A stretch of DNA of 52,057 nt, taken from NCBI GenBank assembly GCA_041492985.1, contig JBGPXY010000001.1, forward strand, positions 1 through 52,057. Reading direction: 5' to 3'. The notes under the pieces are model-generated. The model was not told where the DNA came from. It saw only the letters and a list, made by a program, of their open reading frames with translations, and searched no databases. This DNA is from Candidatus Eiseniibacteriota bacterium (GTDB lineage: Bacteria > Eisenbacteria > RBG-16-71-46). Shown here one piece after another: positions 1-29,265 of this stretch; the first letter of the stretch is position 1, and each line of letters begins with the position of its first letter. A program made the translations under genes and the position numbers.

Positions 1-2
1 AG

Positions 3-782: not shown

Positions 783-825
783 TGGCTGCGCCGCGTTCAT
801 TGCCACAGAACAAGGGAGGCAGGTC

Positions 826-2211
826 ATGACGCACTTGCAAACCATGAGGATCGAGGAGCTGAGGCGTGGCTTCACGGGCGAGATGCTTCTTCCGGGCGAC
901 GACTCCTACGAAAGCTCGCGCAGGATCTGGAACGCGATGATCGACAAGCGCCCCGCGGTCATCGCTCGCTGCGCCACGACCACGGACGTCGTCCGCGCGG
1001 TGAACTTCGCGAGGGACAACGGGCTCCTGCTCGCCATCCGCGGCGGCGGGCACAACATCTCCGGCAATGCCGTGTGCGACGACGGCATCGTCATTGACCT
1101 CGGGCAGATGAAAGCCGCCCGCGTCGACCCCGACACCCGCCGGGTCACGATCGAAGGAGGTGCCACGCTCGCGGACCTCGACGCCGCCACCCAGGCCCAC
1201 GGCCTCGCCACTCCGGTTGGCATCAACTCCACCACCGGCGTCGCCGGACTGACGCTCGGCGGGGGCTTCGGCTGGCTCAGCCGCAGGCACGGCATGACGG
1301 TCGACAACCTCGAGTCGGCCGAAGTCGTGACTGCGACCGGCGAGCTCGTGCACGCCAGCGCGACCGAGCACCCCGACCTCTTCTGGGCACTCCGGGGCGG
1401 CGGCGGCAACTTCGGCGTGGTCACCCGCTTCGAGTTCCGACTCCACCCGGTCGGACCGGACGTCCTGAGCGGACTCATCGTGTACCCGATCTCCGCGGCG
1501 AAGTCGGTGCTTCGGCAGTACCGCGATTTCCTCGCCTGGGCACCGGAGGCGCTTTCGGTGTGGTCGGTTCTGCGCCTGGCGCCGCCACTGCCGTTCCTCC
1601 CGGAGAATGTCCACGGTCAGGGGATCATCGCGCTCGCGGTGATCTATGCGGGCGACCCCAAGCAGGGGGAGCCGCTGATCGAGCCGTTGCGCAAGTTCGG
1701 CACCCCCCTGGGCGAACACGTCGGCGTCCAGCCTTATGTCGCTTGGCAGCAGGCCTTCGACCCGCTGCTCACCCCCGGCGCCCGCAACTATTGGAAGTCT
1801 CACAATTTCTCGACGCTCGAGGACGGACTGTTCGACGCCGTCGTCGAGTCCATCGGGAAGCTTCCGTCTCCCCAATGTGAGATCTTCTTCGGCGCCATCG
1901 GCGGTGCCACCACAAGGCCGGCCCCGGATTCCGCGGCTTACCCCCACCGGGACGCCAAGTTCGTCGTGAACGTCCACGGCCGCTGGGAGGACCCGGCCGA
2001 CGACAAACGCTGCATCGGCTGGGCCCGCGACTTCTTCAATGCCTCCGCGCCCTTCGCCAGCGGTGGCGTCTACGTCAACTTCCTCACCGCCGACGAAGGC
2101 GATCGCGTGCGCTCCGCCTACGGCCCGAACTACGATCGACTTGCCCAGGTGAAGCGCAAATACGATCCGAGCAACCTGTTTCGCATGAACCAGAATATCG
2201 AGCCCGCTTAA
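826..2211 (+). CDS. FAD-binding oxidoreductase (FAD_binding_4 plus BBE-like C-terminus)
   Basis: 461-aa ORF with RBS GGGAGG 7 nt upstream. Motifs: RGGGHN, GGGFGW, LRGGGGNFGVVT, and the C-terminal YVNF...NYDRL..VKRKYDPSNLFRMNQNI typical of berberine-bridge-like oxidases. Confidence 0.85.
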   Translation: MTHLQTMRIEELRRGFTGEMLLPGDDSYESSRRIWNAMIDKRPAVIARCATTTDVVRAVNFARDNGLLLAIRGGGHNISGNAVCDDGIVIDLGQMKAARVDPDTRRVTIEGGATLADLDAATQAHGLATPVGINSTTGVAGLTLGGGFGWLSRRHGMTVDNLESAEVVTATGELVHASATEHPDLFWALRGGGGNFGVVTRFEFRLHPVGPDVLSGLIVYPISAAKSVLRQYRDFLAWAPEALSVWSVLRLAPPLPFLPENVHGQGIIALAVIYAGDPKQGEPLIEPLRKFGTPLGEHVGVQPYVAWQQAFDPLLTPGARNYWKSHNFSTLEDGLFDAVVESIGKLPSPQCEIFFGAIGGATTRPAPDSAAYPHRDAKFVVNVHGRWEDPADDKRCIGWARDFFNASAPFASGGVYVNFLTADEGDRVRSAYGPNYDRLAQVKRKYDPSNLFRMNQNIEPA

Positions 2212-2252
2212 GAGAAGAATGCTCTTCTTCCAGCTCTCACGGATTTCGAACC

Positions 2253-2697
2253 TGAACCGACCCGGGTTCTTCGGAGAACTTGTTAAGTGAGTGTCGCCAG
2301 CTCGGCCGAGGGCTCGACCGGTGGAACATACCCGATAGGCTCGAGCAGACGGTGGTGGGTGAACCAGGCCACCCATTGGAGCGTCGCGAACTCCACGTCT
2401 TCGAGGTTGCGCCATGGCCCCCGACGCCAGCTCACCTCAGCACGGCTCCCGAACCCGCGATTGCTTCGACGAGCGCCGAGCCGAAGGCAAGACCGACCGC
2501 GAGATCCGCCGCTGGCTAAAGCGCTAGATCGCCCGTGAGCTCTACCGCGTTCTCGGGCACTCCCGTGACAGCCACTAGGAGCGTCCTCTCAAGGAATGGA
2601 GCCTCCGGGAATCCCGGCCCGGTTCAATCGCCAGACGGCTCCCGCCGAACTGGCGGTACTCACGTAACGAGCTCTCCGGAGAACCCGGCGCGATTCA
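2253..2697 (-). mobile_element. Internally deleted IS3-family insertion sequence relic (about 445 bp) with about 45-bp terminal inverted repeats
   Basis: 2253-2298 (TGAACCGACCCGGGTTCTTCGGAGAACTTGTTAAGTGAGTGTCGCC) is an imperfect inverted repeat, about 80% identity, of 2652-2697 (reverse complement TGAATCGCGCCGGGTTCTCCGGAGAGCTCGTTACGTGAGTACCGCC). The ends are TG...CA, and the sequence resembles IS3-group IRs (TGAACCGCCCCGGG...). It encloses a transposase C-terminal fragment. No target-site duplication is seen. Confidence 0.6.
2283..2420 (-). pseudogene. IS3-family transposase (OrfB) C-terminal fragment
   Basis: The minus-strand translation ...GPWRNLEDVEFATLQWVAWFTHHRLLEPIGYVPPVEPSAELATLT* matches the conserved C-terminal tail of IS3 OrfB integrase-like transposases. 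The upstream frame is not transposase-like. Confidence 0.6.
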
Positions 2698-2872
2698 TAA
2701 AATCCGTTGCTTCGTGCTTCCAGACCTCGCGAAGCGAGACTCGCTAGAGCTTGCCAACAGAGACGGCCACCGTTGAACCTCCTCGATCAGGGCGAATCCA
2801 GGCAGGAACCGTCCCCGGCGTCGGAGACTCCGCGAGCGAACGGGCCCTGGGCCGCGAACGACAAGGGGGATC

Positions 2873-2899
2873 TGGAGGCGGCACCCGGATTCGAACCGG
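2873..2899 (-). repeat. 27-nt direct repeat of the 3' end of tRNA-Cys (T-arm 3' part, acceptor and CCA); att-like scar
   Basis: TGGAGGCGGCACCCGGATTCGAACCGG is identical to 4547-4573 inside the intact tRNA-Cys. No matching 5' acceptor strand lies nearby, so this is not a gene. Confidence 0.75.
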
Positions 2900-3122
2900 C
2901 GTGCAGGGGGCAATTGGAGAATCTCGAGGTCCTACCGGCGGGTCCGATGCCACGGCTGGGTAGCCCTTGATTCGCCGGGCGTGTGAGGGGCAATTGCGGG
3001 ATCGTGCCACCGCCCCACGGAGCTGTTTCCGTCGCCTCCCTAGCGCGCAACTAGTCGCCGCCACGAACTCGCGAAGCTCTAGCAGCTTCAAGGCCGTGTC
3101 GCCGGCACCGGAGCCGGATCGT

Positions 3123-3476
3123 TCATGGGTACTGAGAATGTCCGCACCGAAAACAGATCTTCGCCTGGGGCGTGCGGAGGATTCGAGCGCATTCTGGGCA
3201 ACGATTGATGAATACCTCGACCTTGTGATCCGCCAGGATGCGCCGAACCACGCCATCTAGGAATGCGATTCTCTCCTCGGACGTGGGCGGCTTGTACGAG
3301 AGCGGTACGTTCTGGAAGGCAGGAACCTTTCGGCGGCGCTCTTCTGCGAGAACTAGGCTCCTTCTCTCCCACCGAGCTCTTTCTTCAGCCGTCCCCGTGC
3401 GCTCAGCATCGGTCATCAAATGGCTGAAGTAACACAGCACATACCCTCTGAGTTCGTCGGTCTCGTCGCGTTCCAT
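3123..3476 (-). CDS. Hypothetical protein with C-terminal zinc-ribbon (CPEC...CFRCGH)
   Basis: 117-aa ORF starting at MERDETDELRGYVL. GC content is visibly lower than the surrounding genes. No family was recognised. The start was chosen at an internal ATG of ORF 3123..3638. Confidence 0.45.
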   Translation of the reverse strand: MERDETDELRGYVLCYFSHLMTDAERTGTAEERARWERRSLVLAEERRRKVPAFQNVPLSYKPPTSEERIAFLDGVVRRILADHKVEVFINRCPECARILRTPQAKICFRCGHSQYP

Positions 3477-3765
3477 GTGCGTCACGCTAAGGGAATCGCC
3501 CTGTGCGCGCCATAGGAAGGTCGGCGGCCAGCTCGGCGCCCTGAGAGCTACCCCACGCGGCGCTTGTCGGCCACGACGGGAGACCTCCGTGCGCGTCCCA
3601 TGGCGAGGCGGCCTATGAGCGGGAAACCGCGCCGTCAAGGATTGGTGTCACACCGATCTTCACCGTCCACCAAACCGAAGCGACTCCGCACCGATCGCTC
3701 TCGGGGGACTTGGAACGGCGCTGTCCGCAGTAGCCGCGACATACAAGTTCTGATATCATGCGAGC

Positions 3766-4101
3766 ATGTCGGAACGGCCACTCGCCTGGCTCGGCTCCTC
3801 TCTCACGGACCTGCGGGCGTTCCCTGCCGACGCGCGCGGAGCCGCTGGCTATCAGCTGAGGCGAGTCCAATCCGGCTTGATGCCCAGCGACTGGAAGGCC
3901 GTGTCCTCCGTCGGGCCGGGGGGGTACGAGATCCGCGTGCACACGGGAGTCGAGCATCGGGTCTTCTACGTGGCCAAGTTCAGCGAGGCGATTTACGTGC
4001 TGCACGCCTTCGAGAAGAAGTCGCGGCAGACCCGTTCGGACGAGATCGAGGTTGGTCGACGCCGCTATGCAAGACTCGAGGCCCAGCGAAGAGGAGCCTG
4101 A
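3766..4101 (+). CDS. Type II toxin, RelE/HigB superfamily (phage Gp49-like)
   Basis: 111 aa with LTDLRAFPADARGAAGYQL..VQSG..P.DWK....GPGGYEIRV....EHRVFYVAKFSEAIYVLHAFEKKSRQT, the typical Gp49/HigB-like pattern. An HTH antitoxin follows 10 nt downstream. Confidence 0.8.
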   Translation: MSERPLAWLGSSLTDLRAFPADARGAAGYQLRRVQSGLMPSDWKAVSSVGPGGYEIRVHTGVEHRVFYVAKFSEAIYVLHAFEKKSRQTRSDEIEVGRRRYARLEAQRRGA

Positions 4102-4111
4102 GGAGGAAGCG

Positions 4112-4411
4112 ATGGCCACCCGAATTCGACAGTCATCCGGAAACGTTTTCCGAGACCTGGGATTTCCCCGCGAGGAGGCGGAGCACCTGAGAATCCGCTC
4201 CGAACTCATGATCCGGCTCACCAAGCTCATCGAGGGAAGGCGTCTTACCCAGGCTCAGGCCGCGCGGCTGCTCGGCGTCACTCAACCGAGGATAAGCGAT
4301 CTTGTACGCGGCAAGATCGATCGCTTCAGCGTGGATAGCCTGATCGAGATGCTGGGCCGGACGGGCGCCCGGATCGCGGTCGTGGTGAAGCCGCGGAGGC
4401 GAGTGGCCTGA
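4112..4411 (+). CDS. XRE-family HTH antitoxin (HigA-like)
   Basis: 99 aa with RBS GAGGAGGAAG. The sequence GNVFRDLGF...LTQAQAARLLGVTQPRISDLVRGKIDRFSVDSLIEML is typical of HTH_37/HigA antitoxins. Confidence 0.8.
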   Translation: MATRIRQSSGNVFRDLGFPREEAEHLRIRSELMIRLTKLIEGRRLTQAQAARLLGVTQPRISDLVRGKIDRFSVDSLIEMLGRTGARIAVVVKPRRRVA

Positions 4412-4435
4412 TCGTCGGCGCTGCCGGACGAACTC

Positions 4436-4462
4436 GTGAACGTTGAGGGGGCTCAACTTCAC
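4436..4462. terminator. Stem-loop between the TA operon end and the tRNA-Cys 3' end (possible bidirectional terminator)
   Basis: GTGAA-C-GTTGAG GGGG CTCAAC TTCAC forms an 11-bp stem with one bulge. It is followed by GCTCGCTTTGG on the plus strand. Confidence 0.35.
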
Positions 4463-4546
4463 GCTCGCTTTGGCGACGGTCGTATTCAACGCTCCCCCGG
4501 TTCAATCAAGGGTTTTGCCAATGAAGGCTTGGGCCCTGCAGGGAGT

Positions 4547-4621
4547 TGGAGGCGGCACCCGGATTCGAACCGGGGAATAAGGGTTTTGCAGACCCTCGCC
4601 TTACCACTTGGCTATGCCGCC
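4547..4621 (-). tRNA. tRNA-Cys (anticodon GCA), CCA encoded
   Basis: The minus strand reads GGCGGCA TA GCC AAGTGGTAA GGC G AGGGT CTGCAAA ACCCT TATTC CCCGG TTCGAAT CCGGG TGCCGCC T CCA. This folds as a cloverleaf with a GCA anticodon and the U73 discriminator characteristic of tRNA-Cys. Confidence 0.95.
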
Positions 4622-4685
4622 CCAACGGGCCGAGCACTCTAGCATCGTAGCGGCAGCTCTTGCCAGCGGTGGACATCACTCAACG

Positions 4686-4925
4686 AATCCCCCCGCCCCC
4701 CGCGCCCTTCTCTCCTCGGTGCACCTCGGTGATTCGGCTCGGCTCGAACTCTCTGACGTGATGGGACGCAGGGTGGCGATGAGAGATTGGGCTTCGCTCG
4801 AGGGCGGCGCACACACGGTTCCGTTGGCCGACGAGACCAGGTTCAGCCCTGGCGTGTGCGGCGTTCGGCTCACGCTCGCGATCCGGCACCGTCGCGACGA
4901 GCGGCGTAATTCTCTCGCCCTGATC
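4686..4925 (+). pseudogene. Relic of a FlgD-Ig/T9SS-type C-terminal sorting domain with no N-terminal body
   Basis: NPPAPRALLSSVHLGDSARLELSDVMGRRVAMRDWASLEGGAHTVPLADETRFSPGVCGVRLTLA...RRNSLALI aligns block-for-block with the C-terminal domains at 25480-25717 and 33770-34002 (NP...L.L.VYDV.GRRV......G.H.V.W......GVYF.R......R.L...). Upstream, the frame runs straight into the tRNA-Cys gene. Confidence 0.45.
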
Positions 4926-4948
4926 TCGAATCTATCTCGACCCGTCGG

Positions 4949-6388
4949 TCAGAGCTTTCGGAACTCCGCGGTTTCGCCCTGCGCGCCAGGATTGCCGCGG
5001 GAGAATCCACCTGGCCCGGCCGATCCCACCACGGTCTGATTCCCAGTTCGCGTGAAAGAACTGGCCGCGTCCTCGAGAATCGCGATGCTCGGGCCGCCGC
5101 CGCCGCCGCCGCCGGCACCGCCACGGCCGCCGGTACCGCCACGGCCGCCGTTTCCGCTTAGGCCCGTACGGCCTCCCAGGAAGTCGGACGCCTGGGCTCC
5201 GGGCTCGCCGCCGACGCCGAAGGTGCCGCCGGCGCCGCCGTCTCCGCCTGGGCCACCGCTGCCGCCATTGGCCGCAACGATGACGTTGTTCAAGAGCGAG
5301 CCGGCTGAGCCCTGCGCGAGCAAGACGCCGAAAGATCCGCCGCCGCCGGCGCCGCCGGCACCACCCTTTCCTCCTCCGCCCCCCGCTCCGCCGCCGCCGC
5401 CGCCCGGGCCGCAAATCAAAAGCGTTCCGACGCCGGCGCCTCCGCCCCCCCCTCCTCCTCCGTTCTGACCGTCGATAGCCTTGTTGCCACCTGCGGGCAC
5501 GTAGCCGCCGCCGACGAAGTTGCCGAAGGACCCGCCCGACGCTCCGTGCGCTCCGTCGCTAACCGGCTGGCCGAAGCCGCCCACGTCGCCGAAATGGGGT
5601 GAGACGAGGACCTGGCCGCCCCTGCCGCCCAAGCCGTAGCCGGGGCCAGAGCCCGGTCGGCCACTAGCACCATCGCCCAGGGTTCCATAGCCGCCGTCTC
5701 CACCACTGCTACCGATCGTGGAACTCTGGCCCGCCCCTCCATCGTTGGGGCATTCGCCGCCGTCGGCGCCCCTCGCCCCGGCGCCCGTCGCGTCGAGTCC
5801 AGCCGCGCCGGGGGGACCCGTCGTCCCCGCCTTGCCCCGGCCCGCGTAGATCCGGTTGTCCGCGATCACGACGCCCTGACTCCCGTTCAGGAGATGGACG
5901 CCGATCGAACTGCCGCCCGAGGCCGTGGCGTCGGCGCTGCGAATGGAGAAGCCGTCGATCAGGAGCGAATCGGCGTTGCTCCCTGACATCGCCGTCGGCC
6001 CGCCCGAGATGACGGTGGAGTCGGTCGCGAGATCGCGGACCCAGGTCGCGCCGCTGTAGCCGCCGTGGAGGCTCATTCTCGAGCGGAGCGTGATGCTGCC
6101 GGCATACGTTCCATAGGCGACGTAGATGTCGGCGCGCGTGTTCCCGGTGGCCGCGACGTCGATCGCCTTCTGAATGGTCTTGAATGGCGCCGGTTGGGTC
6201 CCAACATTCGCATCGTCGCCCGTCGCGGCGCTGACGAAGTAGTTTCCTGGCACGTTCGGGACCCCCGGCGGGCCCGGGTTATTCGGCGCGGTAGGAGATT
6301 GCTTGCTGCAGCCAGTCGCAACCCCCAGAGCGAGCAACGTCACGAACGCCAGGGCCAGCCTGGTGGCCTGATGGATTCTATGATTCAT
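4949..6388 (-). CDS. Lipoprotein with DUF1565/right-handed beta-helix-like N-domain and a long Gly-rich low-complexity C-terminal half
   Basis: RBS GAGGAGG. Signal plus lipobox MNHRIHQATRLALAFVTLLALGVATGC. NYFVSAATGDDANVGTQPAPFKTIQKAIDVA..ADIYVAYGTYAG is DUF1565-like. The C-terminal roughly 200 aa are dominated by GGxGG runs. Confidence 0.7.
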   Translation of the reverse strand: MNHRIHQATRLALAFVTLLALGVATGCSKQSPTAPNNPGPPGVPNVPGNYFVSAATGDDANVGTQPAPFKTIQKAIDVAATGNTRADIYVAYGTYAGSITLRSRMSLHGGYSGATWVRDLATDSTVISGGPTAMSGSNADSLLIDGFSIRSADATASGGSSIGVHLLNGSQGVVIADNRIYAGRGKAGTTGPPGAAGLDATGAGARGADGGECPNDGGAGQSSTIGSSGGDGGYGTLGDGASGRPGSGPGYGLGGRGGQVLVSPHFGDVGGFGQPVSDGAHGASGGSFGNFVGGGYVPAGGNKAIDGQNGGGGGGGGAGVGTLLICGPGGGGGGAGGGGGKGGAGGAGGGGSFGVLLAQGSAGSLLNNVIVAANGGSGGPGGDGGAGGTFGVGGEPGAQASDFLGGRTGLSGNGGRGGTGGRGGAGGGGGGGPSIAILEDAASSFTRTGNQTVVGSAGPGGFSRGNPGAQGETAEFRKL

Positions 6389-6489
6389 GGTTCTGCCTCC
6401 TCGCAGACGCCGAGGACTACTGCTCGCCGCCCTGACGAGCTCTCTACAAGTGAATGCGCAGATTGTAGTCCGAGTGCGCAGCGGGGGGT

Positions 6490-6590
6490 GCTTCGTTCCC
6501 CCTCCAGTCCTCTCAAACGACATCACCCCAGCGAGAACAGGTCGCTGGGGCGATTGGCTATCGGTCTGAGGCGATGTCGGTTGCGTGACT
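6490..6590 (+). repeat. Intergenic module, short variant (copy A')
   Basis: Hairpin CCCCAGCGA-GAACAGG-TCGCTGGGG (6526-6550), followed by CGATTGGCTATCGGTCTGAGGCGAT and GTGACTTTGGC. Shares the hairpin-proximal blocks with 16583-16636 and 40402-40450. Confidence 0.55.
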
Positions 6591-6740
6591 TTGGCACGGG
6601 TCCGGTGTAGAGCGAATTCAAAGCCGCAGCAACCTCTGGCGCCATGTGCGGCTCGAGGTCTCGAGCCGCGCGAAGAAGAGATCGCCGCCGCCGGTTCTCC
6701 CAACCCCGTCGCGTCCTCGCCACGGATCTCGTCTCCGACC

Positions 6741-6941
6741 CTGCTACCGTTTGCTACCGTCTCAGAGTCCCAACGAGTCCTCTCGTGTCCCCTCCTGTCC
6801 CCGCAAATGATATCGCCCCAGCGAGGCAACTCGTTGGGGCGATGGGGGGAATCACTTGGGGCGATGCGGCTTGCGCGCTCTCGTTGAAAAACAAGCCTCC
6901 AGGTTTTGCAGACCCTCGCCTTACCACTTGGCTATGCCGCC
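6741..6941 (+). repeat. Intergenic module, full-length copy B, ending in a 40-nt tRNA-Cys 5'-half copy
   Basis: Collinear with 16508-16694. Contains decamers CTGCTACCGT/TTGCTACCGT, GAGTCCTCTCGTGTCCC, decamers CGTGTCCCCT/CCTGTCCCCG, hairpin 1 at 6816-6839, two GGGGCGAT boxes, hairpin 2 at 6868-6897 and TTTGCAGACCCTCGCCTTACC... Confidence 0.7.
6902..6941 (-). pseudogene. tRNA-Cys 5'-half fragment (positions 1-41: acceptor 5' strand, D-arm, anticodon stem-loop); not a functional tRNA
   Basis: 40/40 identity to 4582-4621. Identity breaks inside the 3' strand of the anticodon stem. No T-arm or 3' acceptor strand follows. Confidence 0.8.
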
Positions 6942-7224
6942 TCGGAAGTGTCGCGGGGCGCGGAAGGTAGCACGCCGAAAGAGGGAGCAACAACCTGAGT
7001 GGCCCGGAGGAGTGTGGGTTCAACAAGCGTCCAAGAGCAAGGTTCTCTACGACAGCGGGTCAACCCCACTTCCAGGTAGGCATGGGCGCCGTGAGGGCAT
7101 CATGCGCCGCGTTCGATTCCCCTGGGCCGAGCACGAGAGTTTCCGGGTGCCGGGCGCGCATCGTCCGGAATCGGCTGGCGTCGATCTCTCGCGAGATACG
7201 GGCCAACCGCGTTGCCGATGGGCA

Positions 7225-7707
7225 TCAGGGCTGACGAGGCTCCGCCACGAAGAGCGTCCGCAGGTAGTCCACCACATTCTGGATCTGCCGTTCATTGAGC
7301 GTGCGCCCCCACGGCGGCATCCCCGTCGAGAGCCCGACCGCGCCGCCACCCGAGCGGATCGCGGTCACAAGATCGACATCGGAGTGCCGTGCCTGGAAGC
7401 TAGAATCGGCCAGTGAGCGCGGCCGTGGATCGAGGTTGTAGGCGTTGAACCCGTCGCCCTTCCCTGTTTCTCCGTGGCAGTTCAGGCAATAGTGGCGATA
7501 GAGCGCCCGGCCTTCGCGCGCGTTGTATCCGAGTTCTGGGATCGGCAACGTCGAGGCGGAGTAGATCGCGCTGACCCTGTCGACCGCCGTCGATTCGGCG
7601 GCTCCCGGGATCCGCGACGCGCGCTGGGCGGCCGTGCCCCGGCAGCCACCGGCCCAGGCCAGCACGGCAGCCATCACCACACTCGATGCGCGGAGGCCGC
7701 GCCTCAT
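7225..7707 (-). CDS. Monoheme class-I c-type cytochrome, probable lipoprotein
   Basis: 160 aa with lipobox-like LAWAGGC, the single heme motif CLNCHG and a distal MPPWG Met ligand motif. The ATGA overlap with the upstream gene indicates coupling. Confidence 0.8.
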   Translation of the reverse strand: MRRGLRASSVVMAAVLAWAGGCRGTAAQRASRIPGAAESTAVDRVSAIYSASTLPIPELGYNAREGRALYRHYCLNCHGETGKGDGFNAYNLDPRPRSLADSSFQARHSDVDLVTAIRSGGGAVGLSTGMPPWGRTLNERQIQNVVDYLRTLFVAEPRQP

Positions 7708-9782
7708 GGCCGCTTCCCTCCCGGATTCCCGGCCGACTTCGCGGACGAGGCCGCACCGTGCGCCGCAGTGAGTGACGGGAGCGACGCCACGTACGCGGTC
7801 AGTGCACGGGCATCGACGTCATCGAGACCATAGTCGGGCTCGCGTGCGTCCGGCCTCCAGCGCTGCGGGCCTTTCAGCCAAGAATAGATCCAACCCGTCT
7901 TCAACCGCTGGCCGGCACCGTCGAGCAGCGGACCGTAGAAGCCCCCCTTCCCACCGATCATGTGGCAGGCCTGGCAGCCGTAGCGTTCGTGGAAGAGCTT
8001 CCGTCCCCGCTCGACCTCCTCGGCCGCCGGCGCGGTCGCAAAGATCTCGCCGGGAATGCGATCGTCGCGCAAGACGTTCTCGGCAATGCTGGCGATGAAG
8101 GCCCGTTCCTCATCGGGCATCTGGAGCTGGATCATCCGTTCTTCGAGGATCGGTCTCACCGTGGTCGGCAGCTTGAGATAGCCGGCCAGCCAGCTCTCGC
8201 GTACCTTGCTCCCCTCGGCCGTGAGCGGCGCGGTGGAGATGTCGCCACCGGCTCCGCCGATCTGGTGACAGGACATGCAGCGATACTTGCGCACCAGCTC
8301 CCCGAACCGACCCGGAGGCGTGTAGGCCGTCTCGCGAGCCGGCACCTGATACGCCACCGGCACCGGCGCGCGCCCCATCGAGAGGAGCGCCGTCGTCAGC
8401 GCTTCCGTCTCGTGCTGGGTGAAGCCGAAGCGGGGCATCTTGAGCCCGTCGCGGAACGATCGCGGGTTCGTGACTTTGGCCGCGAGCCAGTCGGGCAGCG
8501 CGCGGGGCAGATCGTTCCGCCGCCCGAAATCGAGCCGGCCGACCGGCTTGTCCCCGATCCCGGTCAGCTCCGGGCCGATCGCCGCACCTTGGGCTTGGCC
8601 GCCGATCTGATGGCAGCCGTTGCAGCCCGAGCGGCGGAAGATGGTTTCCCCCGCCTGCACCACGCGATCGGCGGAGTGGAGGCCGGGCGCCGGGGCCGGC
8701 GCTGACGCATCCGTGAACTCGTCCATCATGTAGTCGGCGAGGTCGGCCACGTCCCGCGCACTGAAGTGATAGCGCGGCATCCGGGTGTCGGGATAGAACC
8801 GCTGGGGATCGGCGAGGAAGGCGAGGAGCCAGCGACGCGTCACTTTGGATCCCATCCCCGAGAGCTCCGGCGCGCTTCCATTCCCCCGCCCTTCGATGCT
8901 GTGGCACGAGATGCAGCGCGAGGTCGAAAACAGAAGCTTGCCATGCTCGGGATCACCCGGCGCGACCACGGCGGGCAAGTCAGCGTCCAGATCGACGCGC
9001 GGCGGGCGGCTCCACAGGAACGCAACCACCGAATCGATCTCCCCCGCCGAGAGCTTGAACTCCGGCATCCAGGTCGCCGGCCGCAGGGACCTGGGCGACT
9101 GGATCCACGCCGCGAGCCACGCCGGATTGGTCTTCTGCGACAGGCCGGCCAGATCGGGGGCTTCGCTCTTCCAGCCCTCGTGACCCGCGACCTTGTGGCA
9201 TCCGAAGCAGCCGACCCGCGTCATCAAGGCCCGTCCCTCCGAGAGCAGCGATGCTTCGGGCACGGCGTCGGCGAGATGGCAGCGGCCGCACGCCGCCTCG
9301 GTGTAGCGCACCGGCAGGATCGGGGAACTCCAGTCGCGCACCTGGCCGTGCGCCTCGGCCATGGTGGTCGCGCGCCCCTGCCCCAGGTGACAGGCGACGC
9401 ATCCGAACCGACCGATATCTCCCGGCGTGTGCGGCGTGCGTGGGTGCTGGCGGAACGGTTCGGGGGCCCCGGCCATGCGGGGCTCCTCGACGCCCAGGTG
9501 GCAGCTGACGCAGCGATCGACGTGGTCGTCGAGCGCCGGTAGCCAGATCTGCTGAACCCCCACCACGCGCGCGCGGGCCTGCTTCAACTCCTTGAGGGAG
9601 GCTGCGGAGCGAAGCAGCCGCTGGCGGTACTCGTTCTGGTAGCGACGGTACTCGCGGAAGTAGTCCTTGATCGGCGACACCGCCAGCACGACGAGAAAGG
9701 CCACGCTGGAGACGCCGAACCAGAACCAGAGCCGGTCGGACGACGGCCCGGGCGGGGTCACAGGTGCACGCCTCCCTGCCAT
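7704..9782 (-). CDS. Membrane-anchored octaheme c-type cytochrome
   Basis: 692 aa from [11 protein letters not shown], with an N-terminal TM helix LWFWFGVSSVAFLVVLAV. Eight CxxCH motifs: CVSCH, CVACH, CGRCH, CFGCH, CISCH, CNGCH, CMSCH, CQACH. The longer ORF-track start (10625) overlaps the cytochrome b genes in another frame, so I rejected it. Confidence 0.8.
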   Translation of the reverse strand: MAGRRAPVTPPGPSSDRLWFWFGVSSVAFLVVLAVSPIKDYFREYRRYQNEYRQRLLRSAASLKELKQARARVVGVQQIWLPALDDHVDRCVSCHLGVEEPRMAGAPEPFRQHPRTPHTPGDIGRFGCVACHLGQGRATTMAEAHGQVRDWSSPILPVRYTEAACGRCHLADAVPEASLLSEGRALMTRVGCFGCHKVAGHEGWKSEAPDLAGLSQKTNPAWLAAWIQSPRSLRPATWMPEFKLSAGEIDSVVAFLWSRPPRVDLDADLPAVVAPGDPEHGKLLFSTSRCISCHSIEGRGNGSAPELSGMGSKVTRRWLLAFLADPQRFYPDTRMPRYHFSARDVADLADYMMDEFTDASAPAPAPGLHSADRVVQAGETIFRRSGCNGCHQIGGQAQGAAIGPELTGIGDKPVGRLDFGRRNDLPRALPDWLAAKVTNPRSFRDGLKMPRFGFTQHETEALTTALLSMGRAPVPVAYQVPARETAYTPPGRFGELVRKYRCMSCHQIGGAGGDISTAPLTAEGSKVRESWLAGYLKLPTTVRPILEERMIQLQMPDEERAFIASIAENVLRDDRIPGEIFATAPAAEEVERGRKLFHERYGCQACHMIGGKGGFYGPLLDGAGQRLKTGWIYSWLKGPQRWRPDAREPDYGLDDVDARALTAYVASLPSLTAAHGAASSAKSAGNPGGKRP

Positions 9783-10459
9783 GGCCAGATCCACTTCCAC
9801 CCGGGACCGCGGAAGAAGGTGCCGATCACCGTAAGGATGACCGCCACGACGACGAACCAGGTCATGATCCAGTCGCTGAGCGTCACGCGGACGAGCCACC
9901 GCCGCCACGAAGCCGGACAGAGCGGCAGCGAGGGCATCACCATCGCCGCATAGAGCAGGACCGTCGGGACGAGCACCGGCCACACGCGCCAGGCCGCGAG
10001 GAAGGCCACGAGCGCCGCCACCACGGTGGTCAGCCACGACAGCCGGCGCCGCGCGGAGGCCTCGAGGAAGCCCCGGTCCTCCAGGTTCGTTCGGAAGTAC
10101 GGGATCACGACCATCGCGACCACAACCAGCCCGGGGATCAGCACGCCGGCGACGACCGGCGGGAAGTAGTGGAGCAACTCTTGAAGTCCGAGGAAGTACC
10201 AGGGCGCCTTTGCCGGGTTGGGCGTGTTGGTCGGATCGGCGATGCCTTCCAGCGGGGAGTCGAAGAACAGCGAGAGCAGCGCCATGGCGATCACGCACAC
10301 CTGCACCAGGATGATTTCGCGCAGGATCAGGTGTGGCGCGGTCATCACCGTCTCCTCGCGATCGACGAGGACGCGGGCCGCGGTGTCCGGGCGCAGGATC
10401 GCGAGCCGCTTGGGCGTCGCCGTCGCGTCGCTGCTCGGCTCGATTCGGTACTCGGTCAT
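9758..10459 (-). CDS. Cytochrome b C-terminal part / subunit IV-like (PetD-like), extended
   Basis: 233 aa from MTEYRIEPS. The PEWY-equivalent motif is [12 protein letters not shown]. It has several TM helices. The ATGA overlap joins it to the upstream cytochrome b gene. Confidence 0.8.
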
Positions 10460-11202
10460 GCGTCCTCCCCGCTTGGGCGAGCCGTGCGGCGCGAGCCAGC
10501 CAGGCCGCCATCCTTGCGGACCCGCCAGAGATGGAGCCCGACCAGGAGCACCAGGGCCAGCGGCAGGATGACGCAGTGGAGGACGTAGAAGCGCAGGAGG
10601 GCGTTCTCGCCGACGATGTTCCCACCCAGCAGCAGATAGCGGAACGGCGGCCCGAGGACCGGCATCGCCTTCACCATGTTCGTGCCGACCGAGACCGCCC
10701 AGATGGCGAGCTGATCCCACGGTAGCAGGTAGCCGGTGTAGCTCAGCAGCAGCGTGAGGAGCAGCAGAACCACGCCGATCACCCAGTTGAACTCGCGCGG
10801 CGGACGGTAGGCCTTGTGATAGAAGACGCGCAGCATGTGCAGGAAGACAATGAACACCATCGCGTGCGCGGGCCAGCGGTGCAGATTGCGAAGGAACATC
10901 CCGTTGCTCACGGTGAACTGCAGCTCCTTCATGTCGTGGTAAGCCTGCGGCACCGAGGGATGGTAGTAGAGCATCAGCAGCAGCCCTGTGGCGGTCAGGA
11001 TGGCGAACAGGATGAGGCCGATGGCGCCCAGGTAGTACGTGCTCGAGCTTTCGAGGCTGCGCCGCCGCACCTTCGCAGGGTGCAGATGCAGGAGGAGACT
11101 CTCCATCACCACCATGACCCGGTTGCGATTCGTAGCCCGGATCCCGTGGCGGACGATGGAGTGCCACACGCGGCTCTCGGTGATCGACGTCGGCAGCCTC
11201 AT
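10456..11202 (-). CDS. Cytochrome b6-like (N-terminal four-helix, heme-binding part of cytochrome b)
   Basis: 248 aa with [25 protein letters not shown] and [26 protein letters not shown], the paired His ligands on helices B and D. The [15 protein letters not shown] motif is present. Confidence 0.9.
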
Positions 11203-11212
11203 CTGGTCCTCA

Positions 11213-11692
11213 TCAGAATCGGTACGTGGTGCCGGCCGGAACCTCCACCGCCGTGTCCACGATCAGCTCTCCCTTTTCGGAGAGGCTCATCTGCAGCCAG
11301 CGGAGAGGGCGTGGCGCGGGACCGGCCACGACGTCGCCGGCGAGCGTGAACTGGCTGCCATGGCAGGGGCAGGCGATGATGTTCCGGTCTGGCTGGAAGC
11401 GCGTGATGCATCCGAGATGTGTGCACACGGCCGACAGCGCGCGAAATCCTTCCGTAAGCCGGATGACGTAGACGCGCTGTTCGACGTTGGTCACCACCGA
11501 CCCGACCTCGATCGCGTCGGGTGGCCCGGCGGAGAACGCCGTCGGCGGCTCGAACAGCACGCGCGGCCGCAGGAAATCGACCAGCACCACGCCGGCGCCT
11601 GCGGCCGCCGCTGCGCACGCCGCCAGCCCGGCGGCGACGCAGAAATCGCGGCGCGTGATCCCCGGTGCCTTGGCGGCGTCGGCATCAGACAT
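11213..11692 (-). CDS. Rieske [2Fe-2S] protein with Tat signal
   Basis: Twin-arginine [11 protein letters not shown]. Cluster boxes CTHLGC and CPCHGS. The start at MSDADAAK overlaps the stop of the upstream flavoprotein gene by 8 nt. Confidence 0.9.
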
Positions 11693-13559
11693 GTGCCGGC
11701 TCGAGCAGCTGGAACTGCTCCATGGTGATGGTCCCCGCCGGGCAGCGCTCGGCACACAGCCCACAGCGGATGCAGATCGTCTCGTCTTTGATCAGCGCCG
11801 TGCCCGCGCCGCCTCCCTGCGCGAGCAGCGCCGCCGCGGCCTCCCCGTGTTCGGCGCGCACGGCGTCCCCCATCGCCGGATCGGCGACGATCTCGGACAG
11901 GGGCACGAAGGTGATGCAGTTCTCCGGGCACACGTCGGCGCAGCCGCCGCACAGGATGCACTCCGTGCCCTGTTCCGGGTCTTCGTGGAACACGGTGTTG
12001 ACCCAGCAGTGGAGGCAGCGCGATGCCTCGAGCCGGGCCGACACCTCGGTGAAGCAGTGCTCGATCTCGGCGATGCCGACACGCCGCTCGATCGGCAGGA
12101 CGGGCGGTCGCTGGCGCGGCACGCCCTCGAAATCCAGCGCCCGCCGGTAACCCGGCAGCGGTTCGATGAACACCTCTACCGGCGGACCCGGGGTCGCGAC
12201 GCCACGCAGAAAGCCGTCAATCGATGCCGCGGCCCTCTTCCCGTCCGCAACGGCCTCGATCGCAATGCGTGGTCCGAACGCGGCGTCACCCCCGGCGTAG
12301 ATGCCGGGGGCCGTGGTGGCGAGGGTCGTCGGATCCACCTGGAGCGTGCCGCGCGGTGTGACCGCAACTCCGTCCTTCGGTCGCAGGAATGACAGATCAC
12401 AGGCCTGACCGATCGCAAGCACGATGGTGTCGGCTGCGATCGCCAGCTCGGTGCCTGGGACAAAGGTCGGGTTGAAGCGCCGCTGGCCATCGAAGACTGC
12501 GGAGCACTCGATGGTTTCGAGGCCTGTCACGCGACCCGCCTCGCCGAGGATGCGCTGCGGCCCGCGCCCGGCATGGATGACGATGCCCTCCCGCTGCGCC
12601 TCATGGATCTCGTCGCGGTCGGCCGGCATGGCCTCGAGAGATTCGAGACACACGATGTGGACCTCCTTGGCACCGAAGCGGATGGCCGAGCGTGCGACGT
12701 CGAACGCCGTGACGATGTTGAGGCCCGGATGGATGACCTCGTCCCGAAGGGGTGTCCGCAGGGCGGAGCGCGCCACGTCTACGGCCACGTTTCCACCGCC
12801 CACGACGAGCACGCGCCGGCCGAGCTCGACGCGGTAGCCCATGTTGACGTTGAGCAGGAAGTCGACGCCCTTGAGCACCCCGTCCAGGTCGGCGCCGGCG
12901 ATCTCGAGGTCGCGGCTGCGCTGCGCGCCCGGGGCGAGGAACACCGACCGAAAACCCTGCTCGCGCAGATCCGACAGGAGGAAATCGCGGCCCAGGCGCA
13001 TCCCCACCTTGAGCTCGACGCCGAGGTTCAGGATCGCGTTGATCTCGAGCTTGATCAGCTCGCGCGGCAGTCGATACTCTGGGATGCCGAGACGCAGCAT
13101 CCCCCCCGGCACCGCCTGGGCCTCGAAGATGGTCACCGGATATCCGAACAGCGCCAGGTCGTGGGCGGCCGCGAGCCCTGCCGGGCCCGCGCCGATGATC
13201 GCCACGCGGTCCTGCGGGTGGCGCAGCAGGCGCTCGCCGTAGATCTCCCGGAGCAGATCCACGTCCATCATGCTCTCGACGCCGAAACGCTCGGTGACGA
13301 AGCGTTTCAGCGCCCGGATGGCAATCGGCTCGTCGAGCGCCCCACGGCGGCATGCCGCCTCGCAGGGCGCGGCGCAGATCCGGCCGCAGATGGATGCGAG
13401 CGGATTCGGTCGTCGCGCCACGGCGTAGGCCTCGCGGTACTTCCCCTCCGCGATCAGCGCCACGTAGCGCCCGGCCTCGGTGCCGACTGGGCAAGCCTTG
13501 CAGCAGGGGAAGTTGCTCTCCAGCCAGGCCCGGTCGACCCGGCGATCAGACGTTGACAC
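11685..13559 (-). CDS. GltD-like (glutamate synthase small-subunit family) NAD(P)-dependent FAD/Fe-S oxidoreductase with C-terminal 2x[4Fe-4S] ferredoxin domain
   Basis: 624 aa. N-terminal Cys cluster CCKACP...CGRICAAPCEAAC. Dinucleotide folds IIGAGPAGLAAA and VVGGGNVAVDVA. C-terminal CILCGGCADVCP and CIRCGLCAERCP. GTG start. Confidence 0.85.
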   Translation of the reverse strand: MSTSDRRVDRAWLESNFPCCKACPVGTEAGRYVALIAEGKYREAYAVARRPNPLASICGRICAAPCEAACRRGALDEPIAIRALKRFVTERFGVESMMDVDLLREIYGERLLRHPQDRVAIIGAGPAGLAAAHDLALFGYPVTIFEAQAVPGGMLRLGIPEYRLPRELIKLEINAILNLGVELKVGMRLGRDFLLSDLREQGFRSVFLAPGAQRSRDLEIAGADLDGVLKGVDFLLNVNMGYRVELGRRVLVVGGGNVAVDVARSALRTPLRDEVIHPGLNIVTAFDVARSAIRFGAKEVHIVCLESLEAMPADRDEIHEAQREGIVIHAGRGPQRILGEAGRVTGLETIECSAVFDGQRRFNPTFVPGTELAIAADTIVLAIGQACDLSFLRPKDGVAVTPRGTLQVDPTTLATTAPGIYAGGDAAFGPRIAIEAVADGKRAAASIDGFLRGVATPGPPVEVFIEPLPGYRRALDFEGVPRQRPPVLPIERRVGIAEIEHCFTEVSARLEASRCLHCWVNTVFHEDPEQGTECILCGGCADVCPENCITFVPLSEIVADPAMGDAVRAEHGEAAAALLAQGGGAGTALIKDETICIRCGLCAERCPAGTITMEQFQLLEPAHV

Positions 13560-13566
13560 CGGGCGC

Positions 13567-14157: not shown

Positions 14158-14191
14158 ACCGTTTCCTTTCGTGAGTCGGCCGGTGACGAAA

Positions 14192-15514: not shown

Positions 15515-15553
15515 AGCCCCTCCTCGTTTCAGTGGGACAATCGAACGAGGACG

Positions 15554-15582
15554 AGCCTAGAAGGACGCCGCGGGCGTCACAA
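15554..15582 (-). promoter_or_regulatory. Candidate sigma70-type promoter of the respiratory operon
   Basis: The minus strand reads TTGTGA-N17-TAGGCT, about 40 nt upstream of the ATG at 15514, in a locally AT-richer stretch. Confidence 0.3.
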
Positions 15583-15604
15583 TCAGCGGAATGAATCATT
15601 TCTT

Positions 15605-15622: not shown

Positions 15623-15651
15623 ATGATCGCCCAGTCGGGGAAGGGGGCAGG

Positions 15652-16507: not shown

Positions 16508-16694
16508 TTGCTACAATTTGCTACCGTCTCAACTTCCTCATGAGTCCTCTCGTGTCCCTTCGTGTCCCCTCGAAGGATATCTCCCCAGCGAAGGCAACTC
16601 GCTGGGGCGATTGGGCTATCGGTCTGGGGCGATATCGCTCGCGGGCTCGGCGTTGAAGAAAATCGCGCCGAAATTTGCAGACCCTCGCCTTACC
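16508..16694 (+). repeat. Intergenic module, full-length copy C, ending in a 21-nt tRNA-Cys fragment
   Basis: Collinear with 6741-6941. Decamers at 16508-16527 and 16551-16570. Hairpin 1 at 16583-16607, hairpin 2 at 16647-16671, and TTTGCAGACCCTCGCCTTACC at 16674-16694. Confidence 0.7.
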
Positions 16695-28982: not shown

Positions 28983-29065
28983 CGGTGGAATCTACAGCAT
29001 GACCGTCCTTTCCTCCGATGAAGCGCCGGCTGCGTTCTGGCCGAGGTTCAGCTGGCTAATGCCTC

Positions 29066-29217
29066 CCATCGGTGGCCACCGTTGGCCACCCTTGAGACGA
29101 CGCCCCAGAGGACTCAACCCTCTGGGGCGTCGCGCATTGTATTGCCGCGGACCTGCTTGCAGACTCGGTCTCGTAAGTGACGTGTTTTCGAGGTCCCGCG
29201 TTTGCAGACCCTCGCCT
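29066..29217 (+). repeat. Intergenic module, diverged copy D, ending in a 17-nt tRNA-Cys fragment
   Basis: Same geometry as copies B and C. Decamers CGGTGGCCAC/CGTTGGCCAC at 29070-29089. Hairpin 1 CCCCAGAGG-ACTCAAC-CCTCTGGGG at 29103-29127. Hairpin 2 at 29149-29196. TTTGCAGACCCTCGCCT at 29201-29217. Confidence 0.55.
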
Positions 29218-29265
29218 GACCACACGAGGGACGAGGCCGGCGCGCCTGGAGGCGAAGGGCCCGAG

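What the first reader, a model, noticed from the sequence alone, without database searches (positions are those of the whole stretch)
6741..6941. Module copy B ends in a perfect 40-nt copy of the 5' half of tRNA-Cys, 2.3 kb upstream of the real gene
Positions 6902-6941 are identical to 4582-4621. On the minus strand this covers tRNA positions 1-41: the acceptor 5' strand, D-arm, and anticodon stem and loop. Identity ends inside the 3' strand of the anticodon stem, and nothing tRNA-like follows.

Elements that integrate into tRNA genes normally duplicate the 3' part of the gene, so a duplicated 5' half is unusual. The break point next to the anticodon loop is where one class of tyrosine integrases crosses over.

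If the module is transcribed on the plus strand, its 3' end would be perfectly antisense to the D-arm and anticodon stem-loop of tRNA-Cys.
Basis: partly seen in the sequence, partly recalled or inferred. Interest (0 to 1): 0.6.

Follow-up and report, generated by a model that had tools for sequence, protein, structure and literature searches.

The report
Integration scar beside tRNA-Cys gene
The 40-base copy of the first half of the tRNA-Cys gene is the scar left when a mobile DNA island inserted into that gene and brought its own first half and promoter; this reversed way of inserting is rare but known, and it is the usual way for one integrase family in Candidatus Eisenbacteria.

Summary
Positions 6902-6941 equal 4582-4621 (40/40), which is tRNA-Cys(GCA) positions 1-41, and only one real tRNA gene is present (4547-4621, minus strand).

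The integration reading is supported. In relatives, 35-56-nt copies of the same 5' half lie 4-13 kb upstream of intact tRNA-Cys genes, and in all but one pair identity stops at the anticodon loop. The DNA between the copies differs from genome to genome.

In G042 and G004, a tyrosine integrase sits directly upstream of the intact tRNA-Cys, in the same orientation. This integrase family has 49 loci, nearly all in Candidatus Eisenbacteria MAGs. In 22 of them it lies just upstream of a co-oriented tRNA gene (Cys, Arg-CCT, Ser, Lys). All four tRNA-Arg genomes checked have 5'-half repeats 12-55 kb upstream.

"Module B" is the element-side arm of the junction. Its tandem GGTAGCA repeats match those found next to the integrase genes.

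The window's 2.3-kb island has no integrase, and no intact one of this family was found in the 70%-complete MAG. It is a decayed, probably composite island carrying one lipoprotein gene.

The antisense-RNA idea has no support. This is a new member of a known minority class, and earlier agents in this scan read the sister modules the same way.

The parts
6902..6941 (-). Displaced 5' half of tRNA-Cys (positions 1-41). It is the core of the left junction (attL, B-O-P') and, in the model, the remnant of the earlier gene copy.
   Evidence: 40/40 identity to 4582-4621. It begins exactly at tRNA position 1 and ends 3 nt past the anticodon loop.
4547..4621 (-). Intact tRNA-Cys(GCA). Its first 40 nt (4582-4621) are the second copy of the repeat and, in the model, were supplied by the island (attR, P-O-B').
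   Evidence: ARAGORN and Rfam RF00005, 69.3 bits. It is the only tRNA-Cys in the 2.5-Mb assembly.
6741..6901 (-). Module B, the element-side (P') arm of the junction. It holds tandem repeats TGCTACCGT x2 at 6742-6760 (sense strand ACGGTAGCA x2), a GC-rich hairpin at 6812-6843, and a T-run block at 6883-6892 (sense strand GTTTTTCAAC).
   Evidence: Homologues 74-85% identical abut the same tRNA fragment in G017:C68, G022:C105, G005:C410 and G017:C52. The same GGTAGCA tandem motif, in the same orientation, lies between the integrase stop codon and the tRNA in many loci of the integrase family. The hairpin folds at -22.7 kcal/mol, z -2.6.
4622..4760 (-). Non-coding arm next to the intact tRNA-Cys (P-arm side). 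It includes the putative promoter that now drives the gene and a tandem repeat CCTCGGTG x2 at 4714-4731.
   Evidence: Read from the sequence. It has no similarity to 6942-7010. In G004:C276 identity with the window ends exactly at the tRNA 5' end. No integrase remnant was found by tblastn at E<=10.
4949..6388 (-). The only gene of the 2.3-kb island: a 479-aa glycine-rich predicted lipoprotein (MNHRIHQATRLALAFVTLLALGVATGC...), taken as cargo.
   Evidence: ORF list. No Pfam family; weak NCBIfam hit to a LIC10774-type surface protein, far below cut-off. Only 33-41% homologues in 6 of 36 relatives, and only a weak 35% match (G002) among the 7 same-genus genomes.
6493..6585 (-). Partial C-type module (copy A) inside the island, without a tRNA piece. 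It is taken as the remnant of an older junction.
   Evidence: 77-84% identity to modules in window 16550-16643, G005 and G017.
6942..7010 (-). Orphaned upstream region of the displaced 5' half, with a tRNA-promoter-like block (..TTGTTG..N18..TACCTT..).
   Evidence: The motif gctaccttccg.ccccg is shared with the upstream flank of the intact tRNA-Cys of G010. The last 18 nt are shared with G007:C149 and G022. Promoter function is inferred; the consensus scan found none.
2873..2899 (-). 3' fragment of tRNA-Cys (T arm, acceptor strand and CCA, 27/27). It bounds a 1.65-kb island of the ordinary 3' type that carries a Gp49/HigB-HTH_37/HigA pair (3766-4101, 4112-4411).
   Evidence: The same island, with two tandem 3' fragments, is present in same-genus G004:C276 at 83-89% nt identity.
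16509..16694 (-). Module C (16509-16673) plus a 21-nt tRNA-Cys piece (16674-16694, tRNA positions about 18-38). This is a truncated older junction.
   Evidence: 79% identity to module B. Homologues in G005, G017:C52 and G065 carry the full 37-nt half plus a promoter.
29053..29223 (-). Module D (29053-29200) plus a 23-nt tRNA-Cys piece (29201-29223, 22/23). This is a second truncated older junction of another module type, with tandem GGTGGCCA-type repeats at 29071-29090.
   Evidence: 88-92% identity to G004:C221:4859-5027 and G007:C192, which carry the full 37-nt half. The hairpin folds at -33.2 kcal/mol, z -4.5.

Best explanation
Positions 6902-6941 are the displaced 5' half of tRNA-Cys. [quoted passage not shown]

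Elements of this kind carry in their attP a promoter plus tRNA positions 1 to about 38. After integration, the element's promoter and 5' half are fused to the resident 3' half. This gives the working gene at 4547-4621. The resident 5' half, with its promoter, is pushed to the other end of the island, where it abuts the element's P' arm (module B).

The island now present (4622-6901) has lost its integrase. It is probably a composite remnant of more than one insertion: it contains a partial older module (copy A), and its two arms carry different tandem repeats.

Shown:
- the repeat and its boundaries;
- the same junction architecture in many relatives;
- different cargo between the repeats in different genomes;
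- integrase genes directly upstream of intact tRNA genes;
- tandem-repeat motifs shared between the modules and the integrase-proximal arms.

Inferred:
- the exact crossover position (anticodon loop);
- that the tandem repeats are arm-type integrase binding sites;
- promoter function;
- the order of events.
For: 1. The repeat is exact and begins at tRNA position 1.

2. Co-oriented 5'-half copies lie upstream of intact tRNA-Cys in G004:C221 (3.8 kb), G036 (13.3 kb), G042 (4.5 kb) and L078 (4 kb). Arrays of fragments occur in G017, G038, G005 and G065. Except in G036 (position 56), identity with the tRNA ends at positions 38-41.

3. Cargo between the repeats differs: an AEP-TOTE primase-helicase (G004), terminase/methylase/HNH (G036), integrase plus a T9SS protein (G042), a FlgD_ig protein (G017:C68), and a lipoprotein here.

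4. Integrases (PF00589) lie 44-61 nt upstream of intact tRNA-Cys and are co-oriented with it in G042:C119 and G004:C276. The G004 integrase is followed by a Xis-like HTH_17 gene, Replic_Relax and a HerA/TrwB-like ATPase.

5. At the homologous locus of same-genus G004:C276, similarity to the window (83% over 1 kb, toxin-antitoxin island plus tRNA) stops exactly at the tRNA 5' end, where an integrase-bearing element replaces island B.

6. The integrase family has 49 loci, nearly all in Eisenbacteria MAGs. In 22 of them it is directly upstream of a co-oriented tRNA. For tRNA-Arg(CCT), 5' fragments (1-39, 1-43, 1-52) lie 12-55 kb upstream in all 4 genomes checked. For tRNA-Ser(CGA), a 1-44 fragment lies 6.2 kb upstream.

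7. Tandem repeats of GGTAGCA/GTAGCA or GTGGTCAC between the integrase stop and the tRNA match the tandem repeats of modules B/C and D in motif and orientation.

8. The full 5' fragments examined in same-family relatives have their own tRNA-type promoter-like block upstream. In G042 the repeat extends 42 nt into it.

9. The closest solved structure is HP1 integrase (1aih, E 3e-17), followed by 5c6k. From my own knowledge, HP1 is an anticodon-region tRNA integrator and 5c6k is a P2-like integrase.

10. The class is documented: 159 of 3919 Islander islands have a 5' tDNA fragment (PMC4383910), and pTN3-like archaeal integrases use the 5' half (PMC8371274).
Against: - No integrase of this family is intact in this 70%-complete MAG, and none lies in the island. 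Only short remnants exist, on C78 and weakly at 23089-23184.
- No module copy of B, C or D type was found on the same contig as an integrase. The link rests on position and shared motifs.
- No clean empty site was found. Synteny around tRNA-Cys is poor even within the genus, and a metagenome scan for the junction gave nothing.
- The island's two arms carry different tandem repeats (ACGGTAGCA and CACCGAGG on the tRNA-sense strand), so it is not one intact element.
- Read support could not be checked.
Confidence: 0.85

Rival explanations
1. The fragment, with or without the module, has a function of its own as RNA. One version is the reader's plus-strand transcript antisense to tRNA-Cys. The other is a minus-strand 'tRNA half plus module' small RNA driven by the orphaned tRNA promoter and ended at the module hairpin. 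In either version the junction would be kept for that function and not only as a scar.
For: - The 40 nt are perfectly conserved, while the module is only about 80% identical to its relatives.
- A tRNA-type promoter-like block lies upstream on the minus strand.
- A stable hairpin follows, and it is kept in B/C and D module types with different stem sequences.
- The 21-23-nt anticodon-arm pieces at 16674 and 29201 are kept even though the rest of the half is gone.
Against: - There is no Rfam match.
- The fold z-scores of the whole unit are only about -2 on either strand.
- No consensus promoter or terminator was found.
- The architecture (core, hairpin, tandem repeats about 150 nt away) is what an att arm looks like.
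- No expression data could be obtained.
- This would at most be a by-product of integration, not an alternative origin.
Confidence: 0.06
2. A partial tRNA-Cys pseudogene made without an integrase, by segmental duplication, replication slippage or illegitimate recombination. The neighbouring module would then be an unrelated intergenic repeat.
For: No integrase lies in or next to the 2.3-kb segment. The copies at 16674 and 29201 are truncated in ways that site-specific recombination does not predict.
Against: - The same boundary (position 38-41) recurs across genera and across three module types.
- The fragment always starts at or before tRNA position 1 and is co-oriented and upstream.
- Integrases lie beside the intact gene in relatives, with matching tandem repeats.
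- Cargo differs between the repeats.
Confidence: 0.04
3. An assembly artefact: the MAG contig was joined wrongly through the 40-nt repeat, or strain variants were collapsed.
For: Related assemblies do break at this repeat: G065:C168 ends inside the tRNA and G017:C68 starts inside a fragment. The bin is 70% complete in 219 contigs.
Against: A 40-nt repeat is shorter than the k-mers named in related assemblies (k127, k141). Both junctions of fragment B are reproduced in the independent MAG G022, and the module|fragment junction in four others.
Confidence: 0.04

Closest known systems
tDNA-integrated genomic islands with a displaced 5' tDNA fragment (Islander catalogue, PMC4383910: 159 of 3919 islands; anticodon-centred attP class 'A')
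   Same: An intact tRNA gene has a co-oriented end fragment of its 5' part upstream, with the island in between and the boundary at the anticodon loop. Tandem arrays occur.
   Different: The island in the window has no integrase, so it would fail Islander's integrase filter. Here the 5' configuration is the usual one for a whole integrase family in one phylum, not a sporadic exception.
pTN3-like archaeal integrases (Thermococcus; reviewed in PMC8371274)
   Same: attB is the 5' half of a tRNA gene, and after integration the tRNA is expressed from an element-borne promoter.
   Different: In pTN3 the integrase gene spans attP and is split on integration ('suicidal'). In the Eisenbacteria elements the integrase gene stays whole, ends 44-146 nt before the tRNA in nearly all co-oriented loci, and a separate tRNA-type promoter-like block lies between them. 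The hosts are bacterial and there is no detectable close relationship; the best PDB hits are HP1 integrase and 5c6k, the latter P2-like by my own knowledge.
Phage HP1 / P2-type tyrosine integrases and lambda-type attP architecture (core flanked by arm-type sites)
   Same: HP1 integrase is the closest solved catalytic domain (1aih, E 3e-17). From my own knowledge HP1 also integrates at the anticodon region of a tRNA gene. Tandem direct repeats lie on both arms about 100-160 nt from the core, as with arm-type sites.
   Different: HP1 duplicates the 3' part of its tRNA target (my own knowledge). Here the 5' part plus the promoter is duplicated. Binding of the repeats by the integrase is not shown.
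CIMEs (cis-mobilizable elements: islands flanked by att sites but lacking recombination and transfer genes; described in streptococcal ICE accretion, my own knowledge)
   Same: The island is bounded by both att-type junctions (perfect 40-nt core repeat, P' arm with repeats), carries cargo only, and sits in a locus with signs of serial accretion.
   Different: Mobilisation in trans is untested, and no cognate integrase was found in this MAG. The two arms carry different repeat motifs, which argues against a still-functional pair.

Membership tests
tDNA-integrated genomic island, 5'-fragment configuration (Islander criteria) | An intact tRNA gene plus a cognate fragment in the same orientation on the same replicon | tested here: met
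   tRNA-Cys at 4547-4621(-) and the fragment at 6902-6941(-), 40/40.
tDNA-integrated genomic island, 5'-fragment configuration (Islander criteria) | The fragment is an end fragment (not internal), and a 5' fragment lies upstream of the gene | tested here: met
   The fragment starts at tRNA position 1 and lies 2.3 kb upstream on the tRNA's strand.
tDNA-integrated genomic island, 5'-fragment configuration (Islander criteria) | A tyrosine integrase gene lies within the candidate island | tested here: not met
   No PF00589 hit and no tblastn hit of the family in 4622-6901. The feature is met in relatives: G042:C119 and G004:C276.
tDNA-integrated genomic island, 5'-fragment configuration (Islander criteria) | Length of 2-200 kb | tested here: met
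   2280 bp lie between the repeats; spacing is 2320 bp.
tDNA-integrated genomic island, 5'-fragment configuration (Islander criteria) | Presence/absence or content polymorphism at the site among relatives | tested here: met
   Cargo differs between the same repeats in G004, G036, G042 and G017. At the homologous locus of G004:C276 an integrase element replaces island B. A clean empty site was not found.
Lambda-type att site with arm-type integrase binding sites | Repeated short motifs on the arms, distinct from the core and shared between the P and P' arms of elements with the same integrase | tested here: inconclusive
   Tandem GGTAGCA-type repeats occur in modules B/C and beside many integrase genes of the family. 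However, the two arms of island B differ (ACGGTAGCA and CACCGAGG on the tRNA-sense strand), and protein binding cannot be tested here.
pTN3-like ('suicidal') 5'-half integrases | attP lies inside the integrase gene, which is split on integration | tested here: not met
   The integrase ORFs in G042 (338 aa) and G004:C276 (331 aa) are whole and end 44-61 nt before the tRNA.
CIME (cis-mobilizable element) | Flanked by functional att sites, without integrase, excisionase or transfer genes, and mobilised by a related element | not testable with these tools
   The structural part is met: junctions are present and there are no mobility genes. Mobilisation cannot be tested.
Structured non-coding RNA family (Rfam) | A match to a curated covariance model other than tRNA | tested here: not met
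   Only RF00005, at the real gene, in 1-12000 at E<=1.

The most novel reading that the evidence does not exclude
In Candidatus Eisenbacteria, one integrase family may have turned the 5' side of tRNA genes into a cassette-accretion site. Each insertion brings a new promoter plus 5' half and pushes older islands outward. Integrase-less units bounded by conserved P' arms and promoter-bearing tRNA halves would stay mobilisable in trans. Whole metabolic operons could be recruited this way: here the Cyc2/Rieske-b iron-oxidation operon at 7225-15556 lies between two scars and was not found in 7 same-genus genomes. The orphaned tRNA promoters might in addition produce 'tRNA-half plus module' RNAs with a role of their own.
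Probability: 0.15. Interest if true: 0.55.

Novelty: new member of a known kind. Interest (0 to 1): 0.3.

Why it matters
The result explains an odd-looking half tRNA as an ordinary consequence of site-specific integration, so it need not be pursued as a new RNA or a new mechanism.

The useful by-product is a defined integrase family, found nearly always in an uncultured phylum, that routinely uses the rare reversed configuration: the element supplies the promoter and 5' half of the tRNA. Candidate arm-site motifs (tandem GGTAGCA) and at least four target tRNAs can be read from the sequences. This gives island-finding tools a clear test set for 5'-type islands. Tools that demand an integrase inside each island, or that look only for 3' fragments, will miss decayed islands like this one.

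It also marks the DNA upstream of tRNA-Cys in this genome, including an iron-oxidation operon, as likely horizontally acquired.

Tried and rejected
- **Empty site.** The 10-kb flanks of tRNA-Cys in 12 relatives share almost no synteny with the window. The 18-nt match of G007:C149 to 6942-6959 is a generally conserved stretch just upstream of the tRNA start, not proof of an empty site. An exact-pattern scan of metagenome contigs for the fragment|flank junction found nothing.
- **Direct link between a module and an integrase on one contig.** A pattern scan of genome contigs gave only 3 loci. The new one (G065) has its integrase on another contig, away from any tRNA.
- **Integrase remnant in 4622-4948 or 6942-7224.** None was found at tblastn E<=10.
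- **Group I intron or split tRNA.** Rejected: no 3' half follows the fragment, and Rfam finds nothing.
- **IS110-like remnant at about 2430-2560.** This was my reading by eye. It has no Pfam support and is listed only as unverified.
- **Serial-accretion model for copies C and D.** The model fits in outline, but both copies lack tRNA positions 1-17 and the promoter. The replacing sequence is unrelated, not decayed. I have no explanation for two truncations at nearly the same point.

Full report
**Observation**

The window is the whole contig C188 of a 2.5-Mb, 70%-complete MAG. Record titles of close relatives name the organism as Candidatus Eisenbacteria.

Positions 6902-6941 are identical to 4582-4621, 40/40, with a spacing of 2320 nt. 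ARAGORN and Rfam find a single tRNA in the window, tRNA-Cys(GCA) at 4547-4621 on the minus strand. It is the only tRNA-Cys in the assembly.

On the minus strand the repeat reads GGCGGCATAGCCAAGTGGTAAGGCGAGGGTCTGCAAAACC. That is tRNA positions 1-41, ending 3 nt past the anticodon loop. Nothing tRNA-like follows it.

**More pieces of the same tRNA**

- A 27-nt 3' fragment at 2873-2899 bounds a 1.65-kb island with a Gp49/HigB-HTH_37/HigA pair. The same island is present in same-genus G004:C276 at 83-89% identity.
- Shorter pieces of the anticodon arm lie at 16674-16694 (21/21) and 29201-29223 (22/23). Each follows a copy of a "module".
- A further 3' fragment lies on contig C78, next to a 30-aa integrase remnant.

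**What relatives show**

Among 60 relatives, at least eight genomes have two or more copies of the 5' half.

Where an intact gene is on the same contig, the fragment is co-oriented and upstream:

| Genome / locus | Distance upstream of intact gene | Fragment length |
|---|---|---|
| G004:C221 | 3.8 kb | 37 nt |
| G036:C10 | 13.3 kb | 56 nt |
| G042:C119 | 4.5 kb | 43 nt |
| L078 | 4 kb | 35 nt |

Arrays of two or three fragments occur in G017, G038, G005 and G065.

Lined up in tRNA orientation, identity with the tRNA ends right after the anticodon loop (CTGCAAA, position 38, up to position 41) in every case except G036.

The full fragments in same-family relatives have a tRNA-type promoter-like block upstream (for example cttggc-N18-tataac). 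In G042 the repeat runs 42 nt into that block. So these elements carry a promoter plus the 5' half.

The DNA between the repeats differs from genome to genome:

- an AEP-TOTE primase-helicase in G004:C221;
- terminase, methylase and HNH genes in G036;
- an integrase plus a T9SS-sorted protein in G042;
- a FlgD_ig protein in G017:C68;
- a glycine-rich lipoprotein in the window.

At the homologous locus of same-genus G004:C276, similarity to the window stops exactly at the tRNA 5' end. That similarity is 83% over 1 kb and covers the toxin-antitoxin island and the tRNA. An element with an integrase, a Xis-like HTH_17 protein, Replic_Relax and a HerA/TrwB-like ATPase replaces island B there.

**The integrase**

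PF00589 integrases lie directly upstream of the intact tRNA-Cys, co-oriented with it, in two relatives:

- G042:C119, 338 aa, stop codon 44 nt before the tRNA;
- G004:C276, 331 aa, match ending 61 nt before the tRNA.

They are 52% identical to each other.

With the G004 protein as query, 49 loci were found, nearly all in Eisenbacteria MAGs. In 22 of them the integrase is immediately upstream of a co-oriented tRNA: Cys, Arg-CCT, Ser-TGA, Ser-CGA or Lys. In 5 it converges on a tRNA, which is the ordinary arrangement.

For tRNA-Arg(CCT), whole-genome searches found co-oriented 5' fragments (1-39, 1-43, 1-52, and a tandem set) 12-55 kb upstream in all four genomes checked. For tRNA-Ser(CGA), a 1-44 fragment lies 6.2 kb upstream.

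The closest solved structure is the HP1 integrase catalytic domain (1aih, E 3e-17).

**What the module is**

Module B (6741-6901) directly abuts the displaced half. B-type and C-type homologues abut the same fragment in G017, G022, G005 and G065 (74-85% identity where scored against module B). D-type homologues of the 29053-29200 copy do the same in G004:C221, G007:C192 and G017:C68.

All types share one plan. Reading away from the core there is a T-run block, then a GC-rich hairpin, then a tandem direct repeat about 150 nt out. In the tRNA-sense direction the repeat is ACGGTAGCA x2 in B and C, and GGTGGCCA x2 in D.

The stretch between the integrase stop codon and the tRNA in most integrase-to-tRNA loci carries a tandem repeat with a period of about 12 nt. 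The motif is most often GGTAGCA/GTAGCA, or GTGGTCAC in two loci, in the same orientation.

From this I infer that the modules are the P' arms of elements of this integrase family, and that the repeats are arm-type binding sites. No module and integrase were found together on one contig.

**The island in the window**

Region 4622-6901 holds one gene, the lipoprotein at 4949-6388. It has no orthologue in the genus.

The region also holds a partial C-type module (6493-6585). There is no integrase or remnant of one.

The arm next to the intact tRNA has a different tandem repeat (CCTCGGTG x2, 4714-4731) from module B. So the island is probably what is left of two or more insertions after internal deletion.

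No intact integrase of this family was found in the MAG.

**Rivals**

- *A functional RNA, antisense or tRNA-half chimera.* This cannot be excluded as a by-product, but it has no support. There is no Rfam hit, fold z-scores are near -2, and there is no consensus promoter or terminator.
- *Duplication without an integrase.* This does not explain the recurrent boundary, the orientation rule or the integrase linkage.
- *An assembly artefact.* This is unlikely because both junctions recur in independent MAGs.

**Comparison with what is known**

Islands with a 5' tDNA fragment are a documented minority: 159 of 3919 in Islander (PMC4383910). A review of archaeal recombinases describes pTN3-like integrases whose attB is the 5' half, with the tRNA then expressed from an element promoter. 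It calls this "seldomly encountered in bacteria" (PMC8371274).

The Eisenbacteria integrase gene is not split on integration, unlike pTN3.

No paper mentioning both Eisenbacteria and integrases was found.

The finding is therefore a new member of a known kind. The family-wide use of the reversed configuration is the modestly new part.

Earlier agents of this scan reached the same att-scar reading for the sister modules at 16508-16694 and 29066-29217. I tested that reading independently and added the integrase link.

**Unexplained**

The copies at 16674 and 29201 both lack tRNA positions 1-17 and the promoter. The sequence in their place is unrelated, not decayed. Two truncations at nearly the same point are not predicted by simple serial integration.

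Noticed in passing
window 2873-4546: An ordinary 3'-type island lies on the other side of the same tRNA. A 27-nt 3' fragment (2873-2899) bounds a Gp49/HigB (3766-4101) and HTH_37/HigA (4112-4411) pair. The island is conserved in same-genus G004:C276, which has two tandem 3' fragments. tRNA-Cys is thus used as an integration site at both ends.
   Followed up: partly
G000 contig C78:3015-3140: A 30-aa remnant of an integrase of the same family (FHVHMLRHTFARA*VDRGGSLAAL, with one stop codon) is followed by GCCCCCTGCACG plus the 27-nt tRNA-Cys 3' part. The same 39-nt junction occurs at window 2873-2911 (reverse strand). There is no intact tRNA-Cys on C78.
   Followed up: partly
window 6942-16673: The Cyc2 / multihaem / Rieske-cytochrome b operon (7225-15556) and a LuxR-PAS gene lie between fragment B and module C. 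The 973-aa cytochrome and Cyc2 were not found in 7 same-genus genomes (65-94% complete). A close Cyc2 orthologue (74%) was seen only in G010. The operon may be cargo of an old tRNA-Cys island.
   Followed up: partly
window 16674-16694 and 29201-29223: Both older junctions keep only the D-loop-to-anticodon-loop part of the tRNA (positions about 16/18-38). Beyond it lies unrelated sequence, whereas their homologues in other genomes keep the full 37 nt plus a promoter. Two truncations at nearly the same point remain unexplained.
   Followed up: partly
window 23089-23184 (-): A weak match (53% over 32 aa, E 3.8e-5 for this genome) to the box II region of the integrase family lies between a beta-lactamase-family gene and a FlgD_ig/T9SS gene. 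It may be another integrase remnant.
   Followed up: no
L022 (G036:C10) 3306-16755: A 13.3-kb prophage-like island (terminase GpA, N6/N4 methylase, HNH) is bounded by a 56-nt 5' fragment of tRNA-Cys. This is a 5'-type insertion whose identity runs to the T arm, so its crossover site differs from that of the anticodon-loop elements.
   Followed up: no
L021 (G004:C221) 1381-3942: The island between tRNA-Cys and its 5' fragment carries an AEP-TOTE primase fused to a ResIII/DEAD helicase (TOTE conflict-system domain, E 1.5e-94) and no integrase.
   Followed up: no
window 2430-2560 (+): By eye, ...RAEGKTDREIRRWLKR* followed by IARELYRVL resembles the C-terminus of IS110-family transposases broken by a stop codon. 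Pfam gave no hit, so this is unverified.
   Followed up: partly
loci L037-L080 (integrase family), 60-140 nt upstream of the tRNA: Most loci have a tandem direct repeat between the integrase stop and the tRNA, with a period of about 12 nt. Motifs include GGTAGCA, GGTAGCCA, GTGGTCAC, GGGCACA, ACCGTATCCA and ATCAGGCACA. The motif varies with the locus, which suggests co-varying arm sites and integrase N-terminal domains.
   Followed up: partly
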